Positions 1-10,776 of a stretch of DNA of 41,008 bases are shown here, piece by piece. A program made the position numbers and the translations under genes. The notes beneath the pieces are model-generated. The model was not told where the DNA came from. It ran no database searches and saw only the letters and a program-made list of their open reading frames with translations. How positions within the stretch are numbered: position 1 is the first letter of the stretch; each line of letters opens with the position of its first letter. The stretch lies in the IMG/VR virus record IMGVR_UViG_2541047933_000001; one strand, 5' to 3'. This DNA is from a virus. Taxonomy: Duplodnaviria; Heunggongvirae; Uroviricota; Caudoviricetes.

Positions 1-98
1 GAGTCTTGAGTCTTGAGTCTTGAGTCTTGAGTCTTGAGTCTTGAGTCTTGAGTCTTGAGTCTTGAGTCTTGAGTCTTGAGTCTTGAGTCTTGAGTCTT
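1..98 (-). repeat. Tandem heptanucleotide array, 14 copies of GAGTCTT on + strand (AAGACTC on - strand); array reaches the window edge so true copy number is unknown
   Basis: Direct reading: positions 1-98 are exactly 14 x 7 nt; on the minus strand the array sits immediately after ATG-TT, i.e. inside a coding 5' end. Confidence 0.95.
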
Positions 99-256: not shown

Positions 257-5089
<4,833 letters not shown>

Positions 5090-5161
5090 TTTAAAAGAAC
5101 GCGCCATAGTGAAGAGTTGCGAAGGCATCGATACGATCACATTGGCTGTAATGTCTGTCAT
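5090..5161 (-). pseudogene. Tailspike gene, first 24 codons (MTDITANVIVSMPSQLFTMARSFK), cut off from the rest of the gene by IS100
   Basis: Minus-strand ATG at 5161; removing the IS and one TSD copy joins this in frame to ...[10 protein letters not shown] at 3130; matches P22 gp9 N-terminus MTDITANVVVS...[14 protein letters not shown]. Confidence 0.85.
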
Positions 5162-5217
5162 TTAATTTGCTCCAGATACAAGGAATCGCCGAAGCATGGC
5201 TACGGTGAATTTTGGGC

Positions 5218-5243
5218 ATAAAAAAACCCAGCCGAAGCTGGGT
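5218..5243 (-). terminator. Rho-independent terminator between ant and the tailspike gene
   Basis: Minus-strand hairpin ACCCAGCTTCGGCTGGGT followed by a U7 run. Confidence 0.7.
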
Positions 5244-5261
5244 CGTTGCGTTGGTTATCTA

Positions 5262-6185
5262 TCAGTAGTTATGTACTGAAGGAGGTAATTCTTTATTCTT
5301 AAGTCTCATCCATGCGGAAAGATTCGTTGGTCCGTCTGGCTCATTAATATCAACATCTCGTGTATGGTTGATTAAAACATCTCTCGCCATTCCGATAACA
5401 TACGAGAATTCATGACCGTAGTCGTAGCATCTGCCGGAATAGTTCGATTGAATTTGTTTTAGCGCCTGATACAGTTCGCGGAATAATGCCTGTGAGCGGT
5501 TGGCATAATCCCATAGCCATACAAGGCTGTTTACTTCTTTTGCAGAAAGCTCGTTGGTTTTCTTCTCTTGTTTGCCAATGAACTCACCTTCAAGTGGAAC
5601 TCGAGCTGCAAGTGATAGTGCTTCGGTAAACTGCTCCTCACTGATTTCTTTGTACGAACATCCAAAATGGGATTTCAGTGACGACCACATGGTGATCATC
5701 GCCTTAGCCTGTTTTTCTTTTGGCAGAGACTGACCGCGACTCATGACGAGTTGTTTAATGGCTTCCTGCTGTTCAGTGGTGATTTTACCCTGCAACGCCT
5801 TTTTAGCTTTGCGTGGGTTAACTACATGGCCTTTAGTCCAGTACTCGTAGAGCACATCGTCACACTCTTCCTGATACTGGATTACCTTGTCGCGGATTTC
5901 AGGGCGGACTTTGTTAGGACTGATGCTGTTCAACCAAGCTGCCAATTTTCGTAAAGCCATACAAATCATGGCTTGCACCCCACCGGCAGAAGGTATGGTG
6001 ATTTCCACCATACCATTCGAGAATCGTTGAGAAATCTTCTTATGTTGAGATTTCCAGTCTAGCCCCATTCCCTCAACGATAGGTTTCATTGGGGTATACG
6101 GTTCGCCGTTGTGATTGACAACATAAAGCTCTGCGCCGTGGAATGGTACATTGATAGTAGATACTGCTGTTGCTATACTTTTCAT
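5262..6185 (-). CDS. ant: Antirepressor Ant (immI region)
   Basis: 307-aa ORF directly downstream of arc and upstream of the tailspike gene, the P22 immI arrangement; domain assignment is from position and size rather than a recalled alignment. Confidence 0.65.
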   Translation of the reverse strand: MKSIATAVSTINVPFHGAELYVVNHNGEPYTPMKPIVEGMGLDWKSQHKKISQRFSNGMVEITIPSAGGVQAMICMALRKLAAWLNSISPNKVRPEIRDKVIQYQEECDDVLYEYWTKGHVVNPRKAKKALQGKITTEQQEAIKQLVMSRGQSLPKEKQAKAMITMWSSLKSHFGCSYKEISEEQFTEALSLAARVPLEGEFIGKQEKKTNELSAKEVNSLVWLWDYANRSQALFRELYQALKQIQSNYSGRCYDYGHEFSYVIGMARDVLINHTRDVDINEPDGPTNLSAWMRLKNKELPPSVHNY

Positions 6186-6248
6186 GTCGTTAATTCCTAT
6201 GCGTGGTTTTACGATACCGAAGCCCTGACTGTTCCCGCAGTTGGGGCT

Positions 6249-6452
6249 TCAACTTTCTGCTCTATCAGTTATATCTTTCCCTTCGTATACTTCACCTATA
6301 TTGCTAATGCTGGCAGAACATCCAAGATGCTTGTATCTTATGATGTCCAACACGCAGTCACTACACAGCATCCGACCTGTTTCTTTAGAGTAAATGTATG
6401 TTTGATCAGCGTCTGATTCGCTAATGCCGCAGAAACAACATTCTTTACTCAT
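6249..6452 (-). CDS. Small Cys-rich (zinc-ribbon-like) hypothetical protein between arc and ant
   Basis: 67-aa ORF with paired CxxC-like motifs (CCFCG ... CSDC); start overlaps arc stop (ATGA). Confidence 0.45.
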   Translation of the reverse strand: MSKECCFCGISESDADQTYIYSKETGRMLCSDCVLDIIRYKHLGCSASISNIGEVYEGKDITDRAES

Positions 6453-6589
6453 ACCATCACCCCCTCTCTCTTCAAGCTGTCCAGCACCCGTTTAATTACT
6501 TCTGCGCTAAACGATCGACACTCTTCCTTTGCTTTCTCTTCAAGGATTTTTTCTAACTTCTCTGGCATACGCAGTGTTTTTACCTTCAT
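6449..6589 (-). CDS. arc: Arc-like ribbon-helix-helix repressor
   Basis: 46-aa product MKVKTLRMPEKLEKILEEKAKEECRSFSAEVIKRV... follows the P22 Arc pattern (R.P.E......A.E.GRS.N.E); GGAGG RBS upstream. Confidence 0.7.
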   Translation of the reverse strand: MKVKTLRMPEKLEKILEEKAKEECRSFSAEVIKRVLDSLKREGVMV

Positions 6590-6694
6590 TGCATCCTCCG
6601 CTGTATGTGGTACGCATACATAGTATTTAGGTACGCATTGATAGTCAATAGACACCTACATATCCTGTGGTAAAAAATTATTCAGGGTGTGCCG

Positions 6695-6952
6695 ATGTCT
6701 GATCGTAAGTACAAAAACCCTCAAGTGAATCTGAGGCTTCCTGTAGAGATAAAGGAACGTCTTATTGAACTGGCTGAGGCTAATTCTCGTTCATTAAATG
6801 CTGAGATGGTCGCTGCACTTGAAGCATGGACCGAAAAAAATAAACACATTCAAGCACTAGACCTTGCAACTATAGCATCACGATTGATAGATCTTGAACA
6901 TGATGTTGAGAAGTTGAAATGCATGTATGGCAACAATAAAGACGAAAGTTAG
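6695..6952 (+). CDS. Mnt/Arc-family ribbon-helix-helix protein, extra paralogue upstream of mnt
   Basis: 85-aa product ...NLRLPVEIKERLIELAEANSRSLNAEMVAALEAW... carries the RHH signature; divergent from arc. Confidence 0.6.
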   Translation: MSDRKYKNPQVNLRLPVEIKERLIELAEANSRSLNAEMVAALEAWTEKNKHIQALDLATIASRLIDLEHDVEKLKCMYGNNKDES

Positions 6953-6975
6953 AGATACTAACTTGGAGTGATGGC

Positions 6976-7224
6976 ATGGCTAGAGATGATCCGCACTTTA
7001 ACTTCCGTATGCCTTTGGAAGTAAGAGAAAAATTGAAATTAAGAGCCGAGGCTAACGGAAGGTCAATGAACTCTGAGTTATTACAAATCGTTCAGGATGC
7101 GCTATCAAAACCATCACCGATTGCAGGTTACCGTGACGAAGCAGAACGTATGGCTGATCAGCAAGCAGAAATTGTTAAGAAGATGGTGTTTGAAACCCTG
7201 AAAAAAATGTACGAGACCAGATAG
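6976..7224 (+). CDS. mnt: Mnt repressor (near-identical to P22 Mnt)
   Basis: 82-aa product MARDDPHFNFRMPLEVREKLKLRAEANGRSMNSELLQIVQDAL... matches recalled P22 Mnt almost residue for residue. Confidence 0.9.
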   Translation: MARDDPHFNFRMPLEVREKLKLRAEANGRSMNSELLQIVQDALSKPSPIAGYRDEAERMADQQAEIVKKMVFETLKKMYETR

Positions 7225-7266
7225 GTCAATGTTTGTTCGTTGATATAAAATAACAAGGTATACATT

Positions 7267-7866
7267 GTGATTGAGATAGGCGTTATGGCCATCCTGAATC
7301 AAGAGCCAGGAAAAATTGAAAACGTTTTTTCTGACATATCAACATCTATCGAGCGTTCAATTTCAGACTTTGATCGCAGTCATAGCGGCTCTTTGTCTAA
7401 AAAACAGGCTTCTGAAGCTCTTAGCAAGATCTACTGCGTTATGTCACCTGTAGAGGAAGTTTGCAAAAAGTACATTACATTCATTGACATATTAAGTAAT
7501 GGTACAGAAGAAGATATTTCCTCACTTAATATTCAACATGACGATGTAGATATGTTGAACGATCAGATATCTAAGCTTGATTATGGTATCGCGAAACTGT
7601 TGTATACCTTCTTCATCGCTGAGAACAGCGATGCGTGGAAGCCCCATATGTCAACTCTTACAACAATGAAAAACCACTCAATCAATACTTTTATAGAATA
7701 CAAAAGGCTAACAATGGGGCTTGTGACGCTAGCAATGCAGCACATACCACTATCATATGCTGAACCTGAAGAGTTCACTGAAGAAGAGTTGGCTTCCTTC
7801 AAGAAATCAGTTGAAGATTCACATAAAAGATTTGGCATGGAAGCACCAAAATGGAAAACCGCATAA
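7267..7866 (+). CDS. Hypothetical protein, gene 1 of AT-rich accessory module (sieA-locus position)
   Basis: 199-aa ORF (GTG at 7267, alternative ATG at 7285); no recognisable motif; AT-rich; stop overlaps start of next gene. Confidence 0.55.
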   Translation: MIEIGVMAILNQEPGKIENVFSDISTSIERSISDFDRSHSGSLSKKQASEALSKIYCVMSPVEEVCKKYITFIDILSNGTEEDISSLNIQHDDVDMLNDQISKLDYGIAKLLYTFFIAENSDAWKPHMSTLTTMKNHSINTFIEYKRLTMGLVTLAMQHIPLSYAEPEEFTEEELASFKKSVEDSHKRFGMEAPKWKTA

Positions 7867-8270
7867 GCATTGTTGTAGATGCAGCGGCTGGACCATTAGA
7901 ACAATACTTTGCGAAGGCTCTTGCAAACTACAAAAACAGAGGCACCGTTTCAGCTTATCTTGGTAAGATTGGTGGGTTTGAGAGAAACCATCACGCCGTC
8001 TTATCGGGAATTTACAAGTCGCACATCAGGATCCCTGGAGTAGATGATCCTTGGTTAAGAACAACGCCAATACATCGTAGAGTTAGCGATAACTTTTTGA
8101 TATTTGCGGTACACAACACATATCCAATTCATATCCAGATCATTGCTATCATTAAACCTGATGGTCATGAGAAGGTAAAAAAACTATTGCCAGCCATCAT
8201 TGATATAACTGAAAAAAGATTCCAATCTCTAAATGAGAGGGAGCTTAACTCGTTGATTTCATACAAATAA
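7851..8270 (+). CDS. Hypothetical protein, gene 2 of accessory module; C-terminal half faintly RelE/ParE-like
   Basis: 139-aa ORF, ATG overlaps upstream stop; segment RRVSDNFLIFAVHNTYPIHIQIIAIIKPDGHE resembles the conserved strand region of RelE/ParE toxins; weak, unverified. Confidence 0.55.
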   Translation: MENRISIVVDAAAGPLEQYFAKALANYKNRGTVSAYLGKIGGFERNHHAVLSGIYKSHIRIPGVDDPWLRTTPIHRRVSDNFLIFAVHNTYPIHIQIIAIIKPDGHEKVKKLLPAIIDITEKRFQSLNERELNSLISYK

Positions 8271-8292
8271 AATATCAACTAAGGGGGTTGGT

Positions 8293-8616
8293 GTGTATAC
8301 AACAGTTATCGCGATAGCTATCGCACTCATTGTGGTTCAGTACCAACTGGCATCTTTAAAACAAAAGATATCTGACCTCAAGACTGAGAACGAAGCACTT
8401 AAAAACTCAATAAAAGATGAGAAGAACAAACTATCATTCACTATATCTGATATTGAGCAATCCATTGAAATTATTGAGAATAATATTAACAGATTAAAAA
8501 AAGAAGATATTCATGAAATCAATGACAATATCAAGGATTTGAAATCTTGGCTTAGGAATGTAGGACAAATCGCCACATCAACACGAGATAAGCTCAATAC
8601 ATCCATGGATGATTAA
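8293..8616 (+). CDS. Small membrane-anchored coiled-coil protein, gene 3 of accessory module
   Basis: 107-aa ORF with GTG start and AAGGGGG RBS; N-terminal hydrophobic helix TTVIAIAIALIVVQY followed by heptad-like charged repeats; very AT-rich. Confidence 0.55.
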   Translation: MYTTVIAIAIALIVVQYQLASLKQKISDLKTENEALKNSIKDEKNKLSFTISDIEQSIEIIENNINRLKKEDIHEINDNIKDLKSWLRNVGQIATSTRDKLNTSMDD

Positions 8617-10776
8617 TTACTCCTGTGCCATTCCGCTTAGCGACGCTACAATGCCAGCCCTCGCTAAGCGATTGAACTCTTCGTTTCCAACTGCATCGCG
8701 TATTGCTTTTACGGCGGCTTTATTTGCCATAAATCTGCGTTCCGCCGCCGCTAATGCTTCTTTACTTCCGCCAGCTCTTACTGCTTTCGTGGCTTCCTGA
8801 ACTGCTTTCTCTATCGCATACCGACCACTACGTGTGGTGGCAATTTTAGATACAGCACCTTTTAGCCCGGCGCCAACTAAAGCACCTGCGGCAGCGCCTG
8901 CAATGCCCCCTCCTGCTCCACCAACAATGGCACCTGATGTTGAATTGGCAATTGCATTTAACACTGTTGATGTGACGTTGGATAAACCGGCATCCAGATC
9001 GCGTAGTACATTGGCAGTTCTCCCTGTTCTTTCAATATACTGCTGAGGTTTCACTGCTGCTCTTGCAAGAGTGCCATATGCATCTGCAATTCTTCCAAGC
9101 TCTGAGGAATATCGGCTAATGGCTTTTACATTTTGTGGAGTGAGTATCTCTGCGATATGGTTAATTCCTGCTGCATCAGCTTTACCACCACGTACACCAT
9201 GCGAGATAGCATCTTGCAACATTGATGATATAGCAGGAACACGCTCTGATTCTGGCAGCGCGCGGATCATAGAATGGAATCCAGCAGGACCATTAAGACC
9301 TTTAGCTGACGATGATTGAAGGGATTTTACTCCATTCGTAATCAGTGCATCTGTTGCCAAATCACGCCCGAAAACAGACTCTGCACTCTCTTGTGCTGAT
9401 AACCTCGCTTTAGACAGATCATTAGCTTTTTGCCAGTCATCAAGAAATCCGCCGTTTTCCGCCATTGTGCGCATATCATCAGTAATTGCCCGGCGTATTT
9501 CCCCTGCTCTCCTTGCCGCATTTGCCTCTCCGCTACGCTTATATTTTTGCTCCGCATCAGCAAATTTCGCTCTCCATGCTTTCATGCCGTCAAATGTTAC
9601 TCCACCTTGATTGTTTGCCTGAACAAACTGTTTCATTTCAGGAGTAAGCGGTATGCCGGCAGATCGCTCTGCCTGAATAACGGCATTACCATTTAGCATT
9701 CTTGCTTTTTGATTTGGCATTGTTGACCGCACGTCATCCCATGCCGCGCGCTCGGCATCCTTCATCTGATCAAGATTTTGAAGAATCCTTTGTTTTATAG
9801 CCGCACTTTTTTCTGATGCCGTTCCAGATGCGGCCCCAAATTCATCAAGGTTTCGACTTAACTTTGATGATATTTCGTTAAATGCTGCCTGATGGGCGTC
9901 CTGAACAATTCCTGGTGTTGATGCCAATGCGCCTTCGGCTTGTGCAATTCCACGACTTCCAGATCGCATTCCTGGTGTTAATGCGTTTATATCAATTCCA
10001 GCAGACTCAGCCGCTTTTGCTACATCTTCGGACACATTAGCGGCCTGACTGGCAATTGACTGACGCCCAGCACCTGACTTTGCCATCCTAGAAACATCAT
10101 TAGCAGAATTCAGTGCTGCACCACCAAGAGCCTGTGAAACCCTTGGCGCAATAACGCGCCCGACACCTGAAAGAACGCCTTGAGCACCAATATTGATACC
10201 ACCGTTAATGGCAGCATTTTGTGCAAAGTCGCCCTCCTGATTTGCAGCATCAGCAAGAGAACCTGCAATCATGTTTCCGGCGGAACCGATATCTCCAGCG
10301 AGCTTTGCTGTCGCTCCAGCAGCTTTTGCCGCTGTGCCAATTGGCAGGAGATACCCACCAATTGTTTCACCGGCTTGCGCGTAAGGGTCTGTCGGTCGCT
10401 CGGCAGGGCGATAAACATCATCCAAAACCTTGGGGCCGCCAAGCCCCTGGCTGATTGCATTAATCAGACTTGCGCCACCCTGCAATACGTCAAATGGTAT
10501 GTTTACCAGACCACGACCAGCCTGTTCTGCAATTTGCCCTGCACTTTGACCACCTGTGAGCCAATCACCAGCTTGTTGCATCAATGATGGTTCTTCTTTC
10601 TGCTGCTGAGGCGGAGGGTATGCTGCATAAAACTGATCTCTTGCTTCAGCCCATTTGTCACCAGCCTTAGGGGCAACAACCTCATCAAAATATTGCGCTT
10701 GAGCCTGTGCTTTCTGTTCTTCAGTTAACGCCTGATACTGTGGAGAAGCGATAACATCTTTCCATGCTTTAGCCAT
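8617..10776 (-). CDS. Ejection (DNA transfer) protein, P22 gp16 equivalent
   Basis: 719-aa Ala/Gly-rich product at the gp16 position of the conserved P22 late-gene order. Confidence 0.7.

What the first reader, a model, noticed from the sequence alone, without database searches (positions are those of the whole stretch)
7267..8616. AT-rich three-gene module of unknown function at the sieA position
Between mnt and the gp16 ejection gene, where P22 carries sieA, there are three co-oriented, tightly packed ORFs (199, 139 and 107 aa; the first two overlap ATG-on-stop) whose base composition is clearly more AT-rich than the flanking phage genes, suggesting recently acquired cargo. None matches any protein family I can recall. 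Gene 2 has a C-terminal stretch (RRVSDNFLIFAVHNTYPIHIQIIAIIKPDGHE) faintly resembling RelE/ParE toxins, and gene 3 is a membrane-anchored coiled-coil protein. Position, operon structure and composition fit a candidate superinfection-exclusion, abortive-infection or toxin-based defence system expressed from the prophage.
Basis: partly seen in the sequence, partly recalled or inferred. Interest (0 to 1): 0.85.

Follow-up and report, generated by a model that had tools for sequence, protein, structure and literature searches.

The report
Prophage YafO toxin–antitoxin pair plus hkcB
The "three-gene module" in this CUS-3-type E. coli K1 prophage is really two units: a swappable two-gene toxin–antitoxin cassette, whose toxin belongs to the known YafO RNase family and whose partner belongs to a rare undescribed family, and a separate small membrane gene (hkcB) that always travels with one type of DNA-ejection gene.

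Summary
Three co-oriented, tightly packed ORFs lie at 7267-8616 in the most AT-rich stretch of the window (37.6% vs 47.3% GC). The window is phage CUS-3 (100% identity here).

The claim that no gene matches a known family is wrong for two of the three.
- Gene 2 passes Pfam's threshold for YafO_toxin (PF13957). RefSeq already names it a YafO-family toxin in 44 E. coli genomes.
- Gene 3 is the known hypothetical gene hkcB.
- Gene 1 has no family. It is acidic and helical, with only 18 clusters among 1.84 billion representative proteins.

It is not one three-gene system.
- Genes 1-2 occur together, with the same 16-nt overlap and without hkcB, in Pectobacterium and Xenorhabdus chromosomes, other prophage moron sites, and a Salmonella P22-like prophage.
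- hkcB occurs without genes 1-2 in 23 of 23 viral contigs, always abutting a CUS-3-type gp16.
- In SEN22, the slot between mnt and hkcB holds a HicA toxin gene with an adjacent putative antitoxin instead.

The C-terminal ~30 residues of gene 1 change with the type of downstream partner, as expected for a toxin-neutralising tail.

Best reading: a type II-like toxin–antitoxin cassette with a new antitoxin family, probably expressed from the prophage. Toxicity and a defence or addiction role are untested.

The parts
6638..6666 (+). Pmnt-like sigma-70 promoter candidate in the divergent Pant/Pmnt region. It is the likely source of lysogenic transcription through mnt1, mnt2, gene 1, gene 2 and hkcB.
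   Evidence: Consensus scan only: 9 of 12 matches, and the number of sites is not above shuffled expectation. The position matches Pmnt of P22 and epsilon34. No terminator-like site lies between 6736 and 8900. Co-transcription is inferred, not shown.
6689..6952 (+). First Arc/Mnt-family ribbon-helix-helix gene (mnt paralogue 1).
   Evidence: Pfam Arc, E 3e-10. Annotated mnt in CP000711.
6976..7224 (+). Second mnt gene, carrying Arc and Repressor_Mnt domains. It lies immediately upstream of gene 1.
   Evidence: Pfam Arc E 1e-27 and Repressor_Mnt E 2.5e-15. The Salmonella prophage L050 shares a contiguous ~70%-identical block covering mnt-gene1-gene2.
7203..7266 (.). Left edge of the genes 1-2 cassette, as defined against epsilon34.
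   Evidence: blastn homology to epsilon34 stops at 7202. Homology to Pectobacterium covers only 7284-8251.
7267..7866 (+). Gene 1: a 199-aa acidic (pI 5.0) all-helical protein, the putative antitoxin and founder of a rare undescribed family. Residues 28-39 form the motif IERSISDFDRSH. W124, P126 and H127 are near-universal. Residues ~170-199 form the partner-specific tail.
7851..7866 (+). 16-nt overlap of gene 1 and gene 2, suggesting translational coupling.
   Evidence: Read from the sequence. The same 16-nt overlap is present in Pectobacterium, Xenorhabdus and Salmonella loci.
7851..8270 (+). Gene 2: a 139-aa basic (pI 9.65) YafO-family toxin, a putative endoribonuclease of the RelE/ParE (BECR) superfamily.
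   Evidence: Pfam PF13957, E 3.2e-11, 43.6 bits against GA 25, residues 26-122. hhalign against K-12 YafO gives 88% probability, E 2.9e-6, with H58, R77, D80, P103 and H106 aligned. RefSeq names it 'type II toxin-antitoxin system YafO family toxin'. The AF2 model failed at pLDDT 42.
8271..8276 (.). Right edge of the genes 1-2 cassette.
   Evidence: Homology to epsilon34 (98.4% identity) and to SEN22 resumes at 8277.
8293..8616 (+). Gene 3, hkcB: a 107-aa protein with an N-terminal membrane anchor (residues ~2-20) followed by coiled-coil-like sequence and a conserved C-terminus, WLRNVGQIATSTRDKLNxSMDD. It is a separate unit that occupies the exact position of sieA.
   Evidence: 50% identical to HK620 HkcB and 97% to epsilon34 gp14. 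In 23 of 23 IMG/VR loci it abuts a CUS-3-type gp16 and genes 1-2 are absent. Hydropathy maximum at residues 1-15. No family hit beyond coiled-coil noise.
8617..10776 (-). gp16-type ejection (DNA transfer) protein gene, convergent with hkcB and abutting it with no intergenic base. It is the constant neighbour of hkcB.
   Evidence: Annotated in CP000711. 95-99% identical in all hkcB loci. 77% identical to HK620 gp16 and about 26-30% to P22 gp16.

Best explanation
The locus holds two independent cargo units in the hyper-variable 'ant moron' of a CUS-3-type P22-like prophage.

Unit 1 (7267-8270) is a bicistronic, translationally coupled, type II-like toxin-antitoxin cassette.
- Gene 2 is a basic YafO-family protein. 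By homology it is an mRNA endoribonuclease of the RelE/ParE superfamily that arrests translation when free.
- Gene 1 is an acidic 199-aa helical protein of a rare, undescribed family and is its cognate neutraliser.
- I infer that the C-terminal ~30 residues of gene 1 (helix 172-188 plus the G-M-E-x-P-K-W tail) bind and block the toxin. The N-terminal helical bundle, with its invariant ERSxSDFDRSH motif, would be a separate module for stability control, trigger sensing or regulation.
- The cassette has no convincing promoter of its own here. It is probably transcribed in the lysogen from Pmnt together with the two mnt genes. During lytic growth, late transcription from gene 16 towards the tailspike gene would run antisense across it.
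- Its likely biological role is abortive infection of superinfecting phages and/or stabilisation of the prophage (addiction).

Unit 2 (8293-8616) is hkcB, a single-pass membrane protein with a coiled-coil-like body. It sits exactly where P22 has sieA and is inherited together with one gp16 type. Its function is unknown.

Shown: family membership of gene 2; strict gene 1-partner synteny across unrelated contexts; independence of hkcB; cassette boundaries; purifying selection; charge complementarity.

Inferred: toxicity, neutralisation through the C-terminus, co-transcription with mnt, and any defence role.

The confidence given (0.7) is for the core claim: a two-gene toxin-antitoxin-type pair plus an independent hkcB. 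Confidence that the pair acts in anti-phage defence is lower, about 0.35.
For: Gene 2 identity:
- It exceeds Pfam's YafO_toxin gathering score and aligns to K-12 YafO with conserved H, R, D, P and H positions.
- PGAP gives the same name in 44 of 5426 complete E. coli genomes.
- YafO is an experimentally characterised endoribonuclease toxin with antitoxin-then-toxin gene order (PMC8546651, PMC11980606).

Gene 1 as partner:
- In all 12 gene 1 homologue lookups (13 loci shown) a 125-155-aa gene follows immediately downstream in at least one locus; it is cut by the contig end in one, frame-disrupted in one and uncalled in one.
- The contexts are unrelated: Pectobacterium and Xenorhabdus chromosomes, directly downstream of cI-like repressors, the nin region, tail and baseplate morons, and after mnt.
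- The 16-nt overlap is conserved.
- The gene 1 C-terminus splits exactly by partner type. It reads ..SHK+xG..PxW with YafO partners and PEWVKSGDDFVKWI with a second, unannotated 125-130-aa family. The N-terminal motif cuts across that split.
- pI is 4.99 for gene 1 against 9.65 for gene 2.
- dN is 0.19-0.32 with dS saturated.

Cassette behaviour:
- Homology to epsilon34 breaks at 7202 and resumes at 8277.
- The same slot holds a HicA toxin gene with an adjacent putative antitoxin (DUF1902 domain) in SEN22 and at least four other cargos.
- The module is AT-rich relative to its flanks in 8 of the 9 other loci tested, for example 40% against 55% in Pectobacterium; including this window, 9 of 10 contexts.

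Independence of hkcB:
- 23 of 23 viral loci have hkcB plus CUS-3-type gp16 without genes 1-2.
- The Salmonella prophage L050 has mnt-gene1-gene2 next to a P22-type gp16 without hkcB.
Against: - No experiment shows toxicity, neutralisation or phage resistance.
- Gene 2 is only about 21% identical to K-12 YafO. It scores far below NCBIfam's YafO equivalog cut-off (13.9 against 153 bits), and its fold could not be confirmed (pLDDT 42).
- Gene 1 lacks any recognisable DNA-binding or known antitoxin domain. It shows no similarity to YafN, is twice the size of usual antitoxins, and its model gives only generic helical-bundle matches.
- No PADLOC model matches.
- The promoter assignment rests on a weak consensus hit and on analogy with P22.
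- The second partner family shows no detectable similarity to YafO, so its being a toxin is itself an assumption.
Confidence: 0.7

Rival explanations
1. All three genes form one operon-encoded defence or exclusion system, with toxin-like gene 2 as effector, gene 1 as regulator and the membrane protein gene 3 as sensor or anchor.
For: The genes are co-oriented and tightly packed, with no terminator-like site between them. All three are AT-rich. The location is at the sieA position.
Against: Genes 1-2 occur without hkcB in Pectobacterium, Xenorhabdus, lambdoid prophages and a Salmonella P22-like prophage. hkcB occurs without genes 1-2 in 23 of 23 viral loci and in HK620, epsilon34 and SEN22. The homology breakpoint at 8277 falls between gene 2 and hkcB.
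Confidence: 0.05
2. Genes 1-2 are a toxin-antitoxin pair whose only role is selfish maintenance, through post-segregational killing or prophage and island stabilisation, with no anti-phage activity.
For: Stand-alone chromosomal copies lie between housekeeping operons in Pectobacterium and Xenorhabdus. The prophage in this window is probably defective because an IS21-family element sits in the tailspike gene, yet it keeps the module intact. There is no PADLOC match.
Against: The module is repeatedly placed at classic prophage-expressed defence or moron positions: directly after cI-like repressors (the position of lambda rexAB), after mnt, in the nin region, and among tail genes. Many type II toxin-antitoxin systems at such sites act in abortive infection; this rests on general knowledge and was not tested here.
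Confidence: 0.3
3. hkcB is the functional counterpart of SieA. It would be an inner-membrane protein that blocks DNA delivery by phages using the CUS-3/HK620-type gp16, and this is the real superinfection-exclusion function of the locus. Genes 1-2 would be unrelated passengers.
For: hkcB has exactly the position and orientation of P22 sieA, abutting the end of gene 16. It has an N-terminal membrane anchor. It is linked to one gp16 type in every hkcB-carrying phage and viral locus where the neighbouring gene was compared, including HK620, whose gp16 is 77% identical to that of CUS-3. SieA acts on the ejection proteins gp16 and gp20 (PMC10883804). CUS-3 lacks any SieA homologue.
Against: There is no sequence similarity to SieA. 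hkcB has one predicted transmembrane segment, whereas SieA is multi-pass. The linkage may simply reflect zero recombination distance. No phenotype is known, and no literature on hkcB exists beyond its naming.
Confidence: 0.2
4. Gene 1 is not an antitoxin. Gene 2 would be a non-toxic or differently regulated YafO-like protein, and gene 1 an unrelated helical partner such as a chaperone-like or regulatory protein of lysogeny control.
Against: The evidence includes strict upstream adjacency, a conserved overlap, an acidic/basic pairing, co-variation of the C-terminal tail with partner type, and mobility of the pair as a unit through unrelated contexts. These are the hallmarks of type II toxin-antitoxin pairs. 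The H, R, D and H positions shared with K-12 YafO are invariant in the gene 2 clade.
Confidence: 0.1

Closest known systems
YafN-YafO type II toxin-antitoxin system of E. coli K-12 (dinB-yafNOP operon)
   Same: The toxin belongs to the same Pfam family (PF13957), with conserved H, R, D, P and H positions. The gene order is antitoxin upstream of toxin, in a tightly coupled bicistron. The toxin is small and basic.
   Different: The toxin is only about 21% identical and is not an equivalog. The upstream partner is a 199-aa helical protein with no similarity to the 97-aa Phd/YefM-type YafN. The pair is carried on a prophage moron and on small AT-rich islets rather than in the SOS-regulated dinB operon.
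Other toxin-antitoxin or defence cargo in the P22-like 'ant moron' (gene 16 to gene 9 region), for example the HicA toxin with a DUF1902 partner of phage SEN22, and P22 sieA
   Same: The slot is the same, between mnt and the gene next to gene 16. It shows the same swappable-cassette behaviour with sharp homology breakpoints. The region is already described as a high-flux moron (PMC2629481).
   Different: The protein families differ. sieA is a multi-pass membrane exclusion protein and is absent here.
Modular or 'promiscuous' antitoxins of type II systems, where a neutralising segment is recombined onto different domains (as discussed for RelE/ParE-superfamily systems, PMC11980606)
   Same: The gene 1 family combines one N-terminal domain type with two different C-terminal tails. 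Each tail tracks a different downstream partner family.
   Different: The domain is not any described antitoxin domain: there are no Pfam or NCBIfam hits. The family is tiny, with 18 clusters at 50% identity. The second partner family is uncharacterised and is not demonstrably a toxin.
HkcB of coliphage HK620 and gp14 of Salmonella phage epsilon34
   Same: Gene 3 is a homologue, at 50% and 97% identity, in the same position and orientation next to gene 16.
   Different: Nothing functional is known for any member, so this is a name rather than a function.

Membership tests
YafO toxin family (Pfam PF13957; RelE/ParE BECR superfamily) | Whole-protein score above Pfam's gathering threshold, covering most of the model | tested here: met
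   43.6 bits against a cut-off of 25, E 3.2e-11, model positions 2-98 of 101. Homologues carry the precomputed PF13957 hit.
YafO toxin family (Pfam PF13957; RelE/ParE BECR superfamily) | Equivalog (ortholog-level) match to E. coli K-12 YafO (NCBIfam NF007377) | tested here: not met
   13.9 bits against a cut-off of 153. Pairwise BLASTP finds only an 11-residue match. It is a family member, not an ortholog.
YafO toxin family (Pfam PF13957; RelE/ParE BECR superfamily) | Conserved core positions shared with the validated toxin | tested here: met
   hhalign of the gene 2 clade against K-12 YafO gives probability 88%, E 2.9e-6. H58, P67, R77, D80, L83, P103 and H106 align and are invariant in the clade. 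Which of them are catalytic is not known to me.
YafO toxin family (Pfam PF13957; RelE/ParE BECR superfamily) | BECR (RelE-like) fold | tested here: inconclusive
   The AF2 model from an 8-sequence alignment had pLDDT 42. No solved relative is detectable by sequence.
YafO toxin family (Pfam PF13957; RelE/ParE BECR superfamily) | Growth inhibition through mRNA cleavage | not testable with these tools
   Needs expression and RNA end-mapping experiments.
YafN-YafO system (specific pair) | Upstream antitoxin of the YafN (Phd/YefM) type | tested here: not met
   The gene 1 profile against YafN gives hhalign probability 0.2%. Gene 1 has no Pfam or NCBIfam antitoxin hit.
Type II toxin-antitoxin module (generic) | Two small adjacent co-oriented genes, usually overlapping, inherited as a unit in unrelated contexts | tested here: met
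   The 16-nt overlap is conserved. The pair is found in at least 6 kinds of genomic context in 13 loci shown from 12 lookups; the downstream gene is cut, frame-disrupted or uncalled in three of them.
Type II toxin-antitoxin module (generic) | Acidic, labile antitoxin paired with a basic, stable toxin | tested here: inconclusive
   pI 4.99 against 9.65 fits. Lability was not tested.
Type II toxin-antitoxin module (generic) | Antitoxin with a DNA-binding domain that autoregulates the operon | tested here: not met
   No RHH, HTH, AbrB or Phd domain was found by Pfam, NCBIfam or fold search. In the phage contexts an Mnt or cI repressor gene lies upstream instead.
Type II toxin-antitoxin module (generic) | Direct protein-protein neutralisation | not testable with these tools
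   Only indirect support: the C-terminal tail covaries with partner type.
SieA superinfection exclusion proteins | Sequence homology to SieA types A-C, including the FxRYPxEAxxFNK motif | tested here: not met
   tblastn of P22 SieA against the window gives no hit better than E 9.6. It gives no hit in the 23 hkcB loci. Only the type A protein was used as query.
SieA superinfection exclusion proteins | Gene position between genes 16 and 9, abutting gene 16, in mnt orientation | tested here: met
   hkcB occupies exactly this position. Genes 1-2 lie one slot further from gene 16.
SieA superinfection exclusion proteins | Multi-pass inner-membrane protein | tested here: not met
   hkcB has a single N-terminal hydrophobic segment. 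Genes 1 and 2 have none.
Known anti-phage defence systems (PADLOC-DB v2) | Significant match of any component to a defence-system HMM | tested here: not met
   Gene 2 has no hit. Gene 1 has a marginal partial hit to PtuB (E 0.004). Gene 3 has only coiled-coil-type hits (E about 1e-3) to SMC-like proteins.

The most novel reading that the evidence does not exclude
Gene 1 founds a new family of modular sensor-antitoxins carried almost exclusively as prophage morons. A shared N-terminal helical domain (ERSxSDFDRSH motif) would sense phage infection or control stability. Exchangeable C-terminal tails would neutralise two unrelated toxin families: YafO, and a completely uncharacterised 125-130-aa family with the LPGRNK...HYHIG...TS...HPP motifs. 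Together these would give a new abortive-infection system expressed from the immunity regions of prophages in ExPEC K1 strains. In parallel, hkcB would be a gp16-type-specific analogue of SieA.
Probability: 0.2. Interest if true: 0.65.

Novelty: new variant of a known kind. Interest (0 to 1): 0.4.

Why it matters
If the pair is active, it adds a YafO-family toxin with a non-canonical antitoxin family to the toxin-antitoxin repertoire. This is a toxin family whose targets and ribosome dependence are still debated.

It would also place the system in clinically important ExPEC K1 lineages (RS218, UTI89, NU14, IHE3034, APEC O18), on the prophage that also controls capsule O-acetylation.

The modular build of the gene 1 family is a compact natural experiment on how antitoxin specificity is exchanged: one N-terminal domain with two partner-specific tails.

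The strict linkage of hkcB to one gp16 type gives a concrete, testable candidate for the missing exclusion function in P22-like phages that lack sieA. The strains and hybrid phages needed for that test already exist.

If the pair is inactive or purely selfish, the locus is ordinary prophage cargo.

Tried and rejected
- Fold of gene 2: the AF2 model on an 8-sequence alignment failed (pLDDT 42).
- Is the second partner family (A3/A6) a divergent YafO? hhalign against the gene 2 clade and against K-12 YafO was negative. An HMM search of PDB was negative. Pfam, NCBIfam and PADLOC were negative. By eye the motif order resembles YafO (helix, G..GR[ND], H-x-H, [ST]-x-x-[LV]-[VI]-x-Y/C-Q, then P..H), but this is not statistically supported and I do not claim it.
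- Epsilon34 gp15 is also 139 aa and sits in the same slot, so I suspected an inverted homologue of gene 2. It is unrelated.
The narrow alignment found only three Pectobacterium species.
- Flanking repeats or att-like sites around the cassette: none were convincing.
- Own promoter for gene 1 in 7225-7266: none at the scan threshold.
- Rfam: the only hit in 5000-9200 is the sar RNA. There is no RNA antitoxin-like element.
- Literature: no paper links YafO to P22-like prophages or to NetFlax-type networks, and nothing functional exists on hkcB. The CUS-3 genome paper (PMC1951898) is not held.
Full report
**What the window is.** Positions 6900-8900 are 100% identical to Enterobacteria phage CUS-3 (CP000711), the P22-like prophage of E. 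coli K1 strain RS218. In that record the three ORFs are ECRS218_0007, 0008 and 0009. The first two are 'hypothetical' and the third is named hkcB. The same 1068 bp (7225-8292) occur at 99% identity or more in all but one of 44 matching genomes, out of 5426 complete E. coli genomes. They are always chromosomal and single-copy, and include UTI89, NU14, IHE3034, UM146 and APEC O18.

**Check of the observation.**
- The ORFs are as described: 7267-7866 (199 aa), 7851-8270 (139 aa) and 8293-8616 (107 aa), all on the + strand. They lie between an Mnt-family gene (6976-7224) and the convergent gp16 gene (8617-10776).
- The gene 1/gene 2 overlap is 16 nt, not an ATGA-type overlap.
- GC is 37.6% against 47.3% for the window. 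It is the lowest 1350-nt stretch in the window.
- The genes are under purifying selection. For genes 1 and 2 against Pectobacterium and Xenorhabdus, dN is 0.19-0.32 while dS is saturated. For hkcB against HK620, dN/dS is 0.24.
- P22 has mnt, orf59a, a terminator, PsieA and sieA abutting gene 16 in the same orientation. 'The sieA position' is therefore correct for the locus, and hkcB is the gene in the exact sieA slot.

**Gene 2 is a YafO-family toxin.**
- Pfam YafO_toxin (PF13957) matches residues 26-122 with 43.6 bits against a gathering score of 25, E 3.2e-11.
- A profile of the gene 2 clade aligns to K-12 YafO with 88% probability (E 2.9e-6). H58, P67, R77, D80, L83, P103 and H106 are shared and are invariant in the clade.
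- NCBI already names the protein and its homologues 'type II toxin-antitoxin system YafO family toxin'.
- It is not an ortholog of K-12 YafO. It scores 13.9 bits against the equivalog cut-off of 153, and identity is about 21%.
- YafO is one of 13 Pfam families of the BECR-fold RelE/ParE superfamily, with antitoxin-then-toxin gene order. It is an mRNA endoribonuclease whose ribosome dependence is disputed (PMC11980606 and PMC8546651).
- I could not confirm the fold. The AF2 model had pLDDT 42, and no solved relative is detectable by sequence.

**Gene 1 is the conserved partner, from a rare undescribed family.**
- It has no Pfam, NCBIfam or meaningful PADLOC hit. Only phrog_18235, of unknown function, matches.
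- The word-indexed search of 5.8 billion clusters found 16 relatives: E. coli, Salmonella, Pectobacterium and one distant sequence.
- An exhaustive profile search of 1.84 billion representatives found just 18.
- One genome per species across 185,579 species gave three Pectobacterium hits.
- The AF2 model (pLDDT 80) is an all-helical bundle: H14-38, H45-78, H91-119 and H125-157, then a low-confidence linker and a C-terminal helix at 172-188.
- It shows no similarity to YafN.
- It is acidic (pI 4.99), while gene 2 is basic (pI 9.65).

**Synteny shows a two-gene unit.** I used all 12 available lookups (13 loci shown). In every lookup at least one locus has a small gene starting at or overlapping the gene 1 homologue's stop.

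A Pfam YafO_toxin partner follows in these loci:
- Pectobacterium, as an AT-rich islet between an ABC-transporter operon and gcvTHP, with the same 16-nt overlap.
- Xenorhabdus, between slt and an ABC-F gene.
- Two lambdoid prophages, directly downstream of the cI-like S24 repressor, the position of lambda rexAB.
- A lambdoid nin region.
- A chromosomal site next to a PirA-like gene.
- A Salmonella P22-like prophage, described below.

A different 125-130-aa protein with no Pfam hit follows in these loci:
- After mnt in another phage.
- In a baseplate-region moron.
- In a tail-region moron.
- On a short contig.

The remaining locus is cut by the contig end, 81 residues into the downstream gene.

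**Modularity of gene 1.** In an alignment of 16 family members, the last ~30 residues split exactly by partner.
- YafO-partnered proteins end in ...F-K-x-x-V-x-x-S-H-K-+-x-G-x-x-x-P-x-W.
- The others end in ...P-E-W-V-K-S-G-D-D-F-V-K-W-I.
- The N-terminal motif I-E-R-S-I-S-D-F-D-R-S-H occurs on both sides of that split and is absent from some YafO-partnered members.
- W124, P126 and H127 are nearly universal.

This is the pattern expected if the C-terminal segment is the partner-specific neutralising element and the N-terminal bundle is a separable module. That is an inference. No binding was tested.

**The second partner family.** It has 91 clusters. Every member that carries a source name is called 'hypothetical', and none has a Pfam domain. 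It is found in Serratia, Klebsiella, Salmonella, Rahnella, Neisseria, Aeromonas and others. It has invariant L-P-G-R-N-K, H-Y-H-x-G, T-S and H-P-P motifs. It shows no statistically detectable similarity to YafO or to any solved structure. Its nature is open.

**hkcB is a separate unit.**
- Against epsilon34, nucleotide homology stops at 7202 inside the end of mnt and resumes at 8277, seven bases after the gene 2 stop. From there it runs at 98.4% identity through hkcB into gp16.
- In epsilon34 the intervening slot holds an unrelated 139-aa gene on the other strand.
- Of 23 IMG/VR loci carrying hkcB, all have it 6 nt from a CUS-3-type gp16 (95-99% identical) and none has genes 1-2.
- The slot between mnt and hkcB holds at least five other contents. 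These include a HicA toxin with a DUF1902-domain partner in SEN22, a P63C-domain protein, and two different small-protein pairs ending in tail-anchored coiled-coil proteins.
- Conversely, the Salmonella P22-like prophage L050 has ant, arc, mnt, gene 1 (68% identity) and gene 2 (YafO). These are followed by a P22-type gp16 (Pfam Phage_P22_gp16) with no hkcB.
- In L050 the mnt-gene1-gene2 block is contiguous at about 70% nucleotide identity to CUS-3, so the arrangement is old rather than a recent CUS-3 acquisition.
- The module is AT-rich relative to its flanks in 8 of the 9 other loci tested, for example 40% against 55% in Pectobacterium.
- The region between genes 16 and 9 was already described as a high-flux 'ant moron' (PMC2629481). 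sieA is present in only 22 of 66 P22-like phages (PMC10883804).

**What hkcB may be.**
- It has one N-terminal hydrophobic segment (residues ~2-20). No basic residues precede it and K-Q-K follows it. By the positive-inside rule I infer that the coiled-coil-like body is cytoplasmic.
- The C-terminus WLRNVGQIATSTRDKLNxSMDD is nearly identical in HK620.
- Family hits are coiled-coil noise.
- It has no similarity to SieA, and the window has no SieA homologue.
- All phages carrying hkcB share one gp16 type. CUS-3 and HK620 gp16 are 77% identical, and both are about 26-30% identical to P22 gp16.
- SieA acts through gp16 and gp20 (PMC10883804). hkcB is therefore a reasonable but untested candidate for an exclusion function matched to this gp16 type. 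Simple physical linkage explains the data equally well.

**Expression.**
- The only promoter-like sites near the locus are the divergent Pant/Pmnt-type pair at 6620-6666 and a weak site at 8245-8273 before hkcB. The count does not exceed shuffled expectation.
- There is no terminator-like site between 6736 and 8900.
- The immI apparatus is P22-like. There is a strong sar RNA match at 6187-6254 (84.6 bits against a gathering score of 43) and an Arc-like gene at 6449-6655 on the minus strand.
- By analogy with P22, I infer lysogenic co-transcription of mnt, mnt, gene 1, gene 2 and hkcB, and antisense late transcription across them during lytic growth. None of this is shown.

**Verdict.**
However, the toxin is a recognised YafO-family member already named in RefSeq, and the module is two units rather than three genes acting together.
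- The new content is the partner: a rare helical family with a partner-specific tail, apparently also serving a second uncharacterised small-protein family.
- A defence, abortive-infection or addiction function is plausible from position and precedent, but untested.
- I rate it a new variant of a known kind, of moderate interest.

Noticed in passing
window 1-98: The window opens with 14 perfect copies of the heptanucleotide GAGTCTT (reverse complement AAGACTC). The matching CP000711 feature is the neuO poly(psi) heptanucleotide repeat, with 19 copies there.
   Followed up: partly
window 3130-5084: An IS21-family element is present here and absent from CP000711. It carries an istA-like transposase at 3217-4239 and an IstB ATPase at 4236-5018. 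It sits near the 5' end of the endosialidase tailspike gene (ORF 257-3160, minus strand, starting inside the head-binding domain), so this copy of the prophage is probably defective. The element is 99.5% identical to copies in other E. coli and Yersinia phage records.
   Followed up: partly
window 6187-6254 (+) and 6449-6655 (-): There is a strong Rfam sar antisense RNA match (84.6 bits) and an Arc-family ORF that PGAP calls as 46 aa. The epsilon34 genome paper (PMC2629481) states that CUS-3 apparently lacks arc. The immI region here looks more complete than that.
   Followed up: partly
window 6249-6452 (-): A 67-aa Cys-rich ORF (two CxxC-like pairs; phrog_7150, unknown function) lies between the Arc-like gene and ant. 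Its 3' end overlaps sar. It is also present in related prophages.
   Followed up: no
window 6689-7224: Two tandem Arc/Mnt-family genes are present where P22 has one. Only the second has the Mnt C-terminal tetramerisation domain. Related prophages carry one or the other. Direct repeats GGTACGCATxxATAGT at 6609-6645 lie in the divergent promoter region and may be operators.
   Followed up: no
window 8617-10776 vs L003:4123-6291: CUS-3 and HK620 gp16 are 77% identical over their full length by BLASTP. PMC10883804 states that they are only 26% identical and builds an argument about SieA escape on that figure. Either the paper's figure or its gene assignment differs from the deposited sequences.
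   Followed up: partly
L042:3005-3859 (-) (phage SEN22): A HicA toxin (Pfam E 4e-9) and a 217-aa DUF1902-domain protein, a putative HicB-type antitoxin, occupy the same mnt-hkcB slot.
   Followed up: partly
L050:6033-6164 (+): In the Salmonella prophage that has genes 1-2 but no hkcB, a 43-aa ORF with a strong AAGGAGG Shine-Dalgarno lies between gene 2 and gp16. It has an N-terminal hydrophobic segment (MITNIILWIIFAVLVTISVQLSNVTKLLRSIDAKDAESRPD). It may be a miniature counterpart of hkcB at the gp16-adjacent position.
   Followed up: no
L008:2065-2457, L010:889-1266, L011:2333-2716, L021:1034-1411 (family A5/A6): An uncharacterised 125-130-aa family has invariant LPGRNK, HYHxG, TS and HPP motifs. 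It has 91 clusters, none with a functional name from any source. It is the alternative downstream partner of gene 1-like proteins and is much more widespread than the gene 1 family, so it must also pair with other upstream genes.
   Followed up: partly
L020:3001-4030: A gene 1-like gene (P0034) has no called gene in the 418 nt downstream. The near-identical locus L021 has the 125-aa partner there. This may be a degraded toxin leaving an orphan partner.
   Followed up: no
L028:3286-3979 and L043:3224-3980: Two further alternative cargos of the mnt-hkcB slot each end in a small tail-anchored coiled-coil protein with a weak XhlA-like match. Membrane-anchored coiled-coil proteins thus recur at this locus in different forms.
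   Followed up: no
window 8293-8616 vs L045: Close hkcB variants differ mostly by amino-acid changes. Against L045 there are 13 replacements but only 4 synonymous differences in conserved codons, giving dN/dS of about 0.85. Against HK620, dN/dS is 0.24. The numbers are too small to call diversifying selection.
   Followed up: partly
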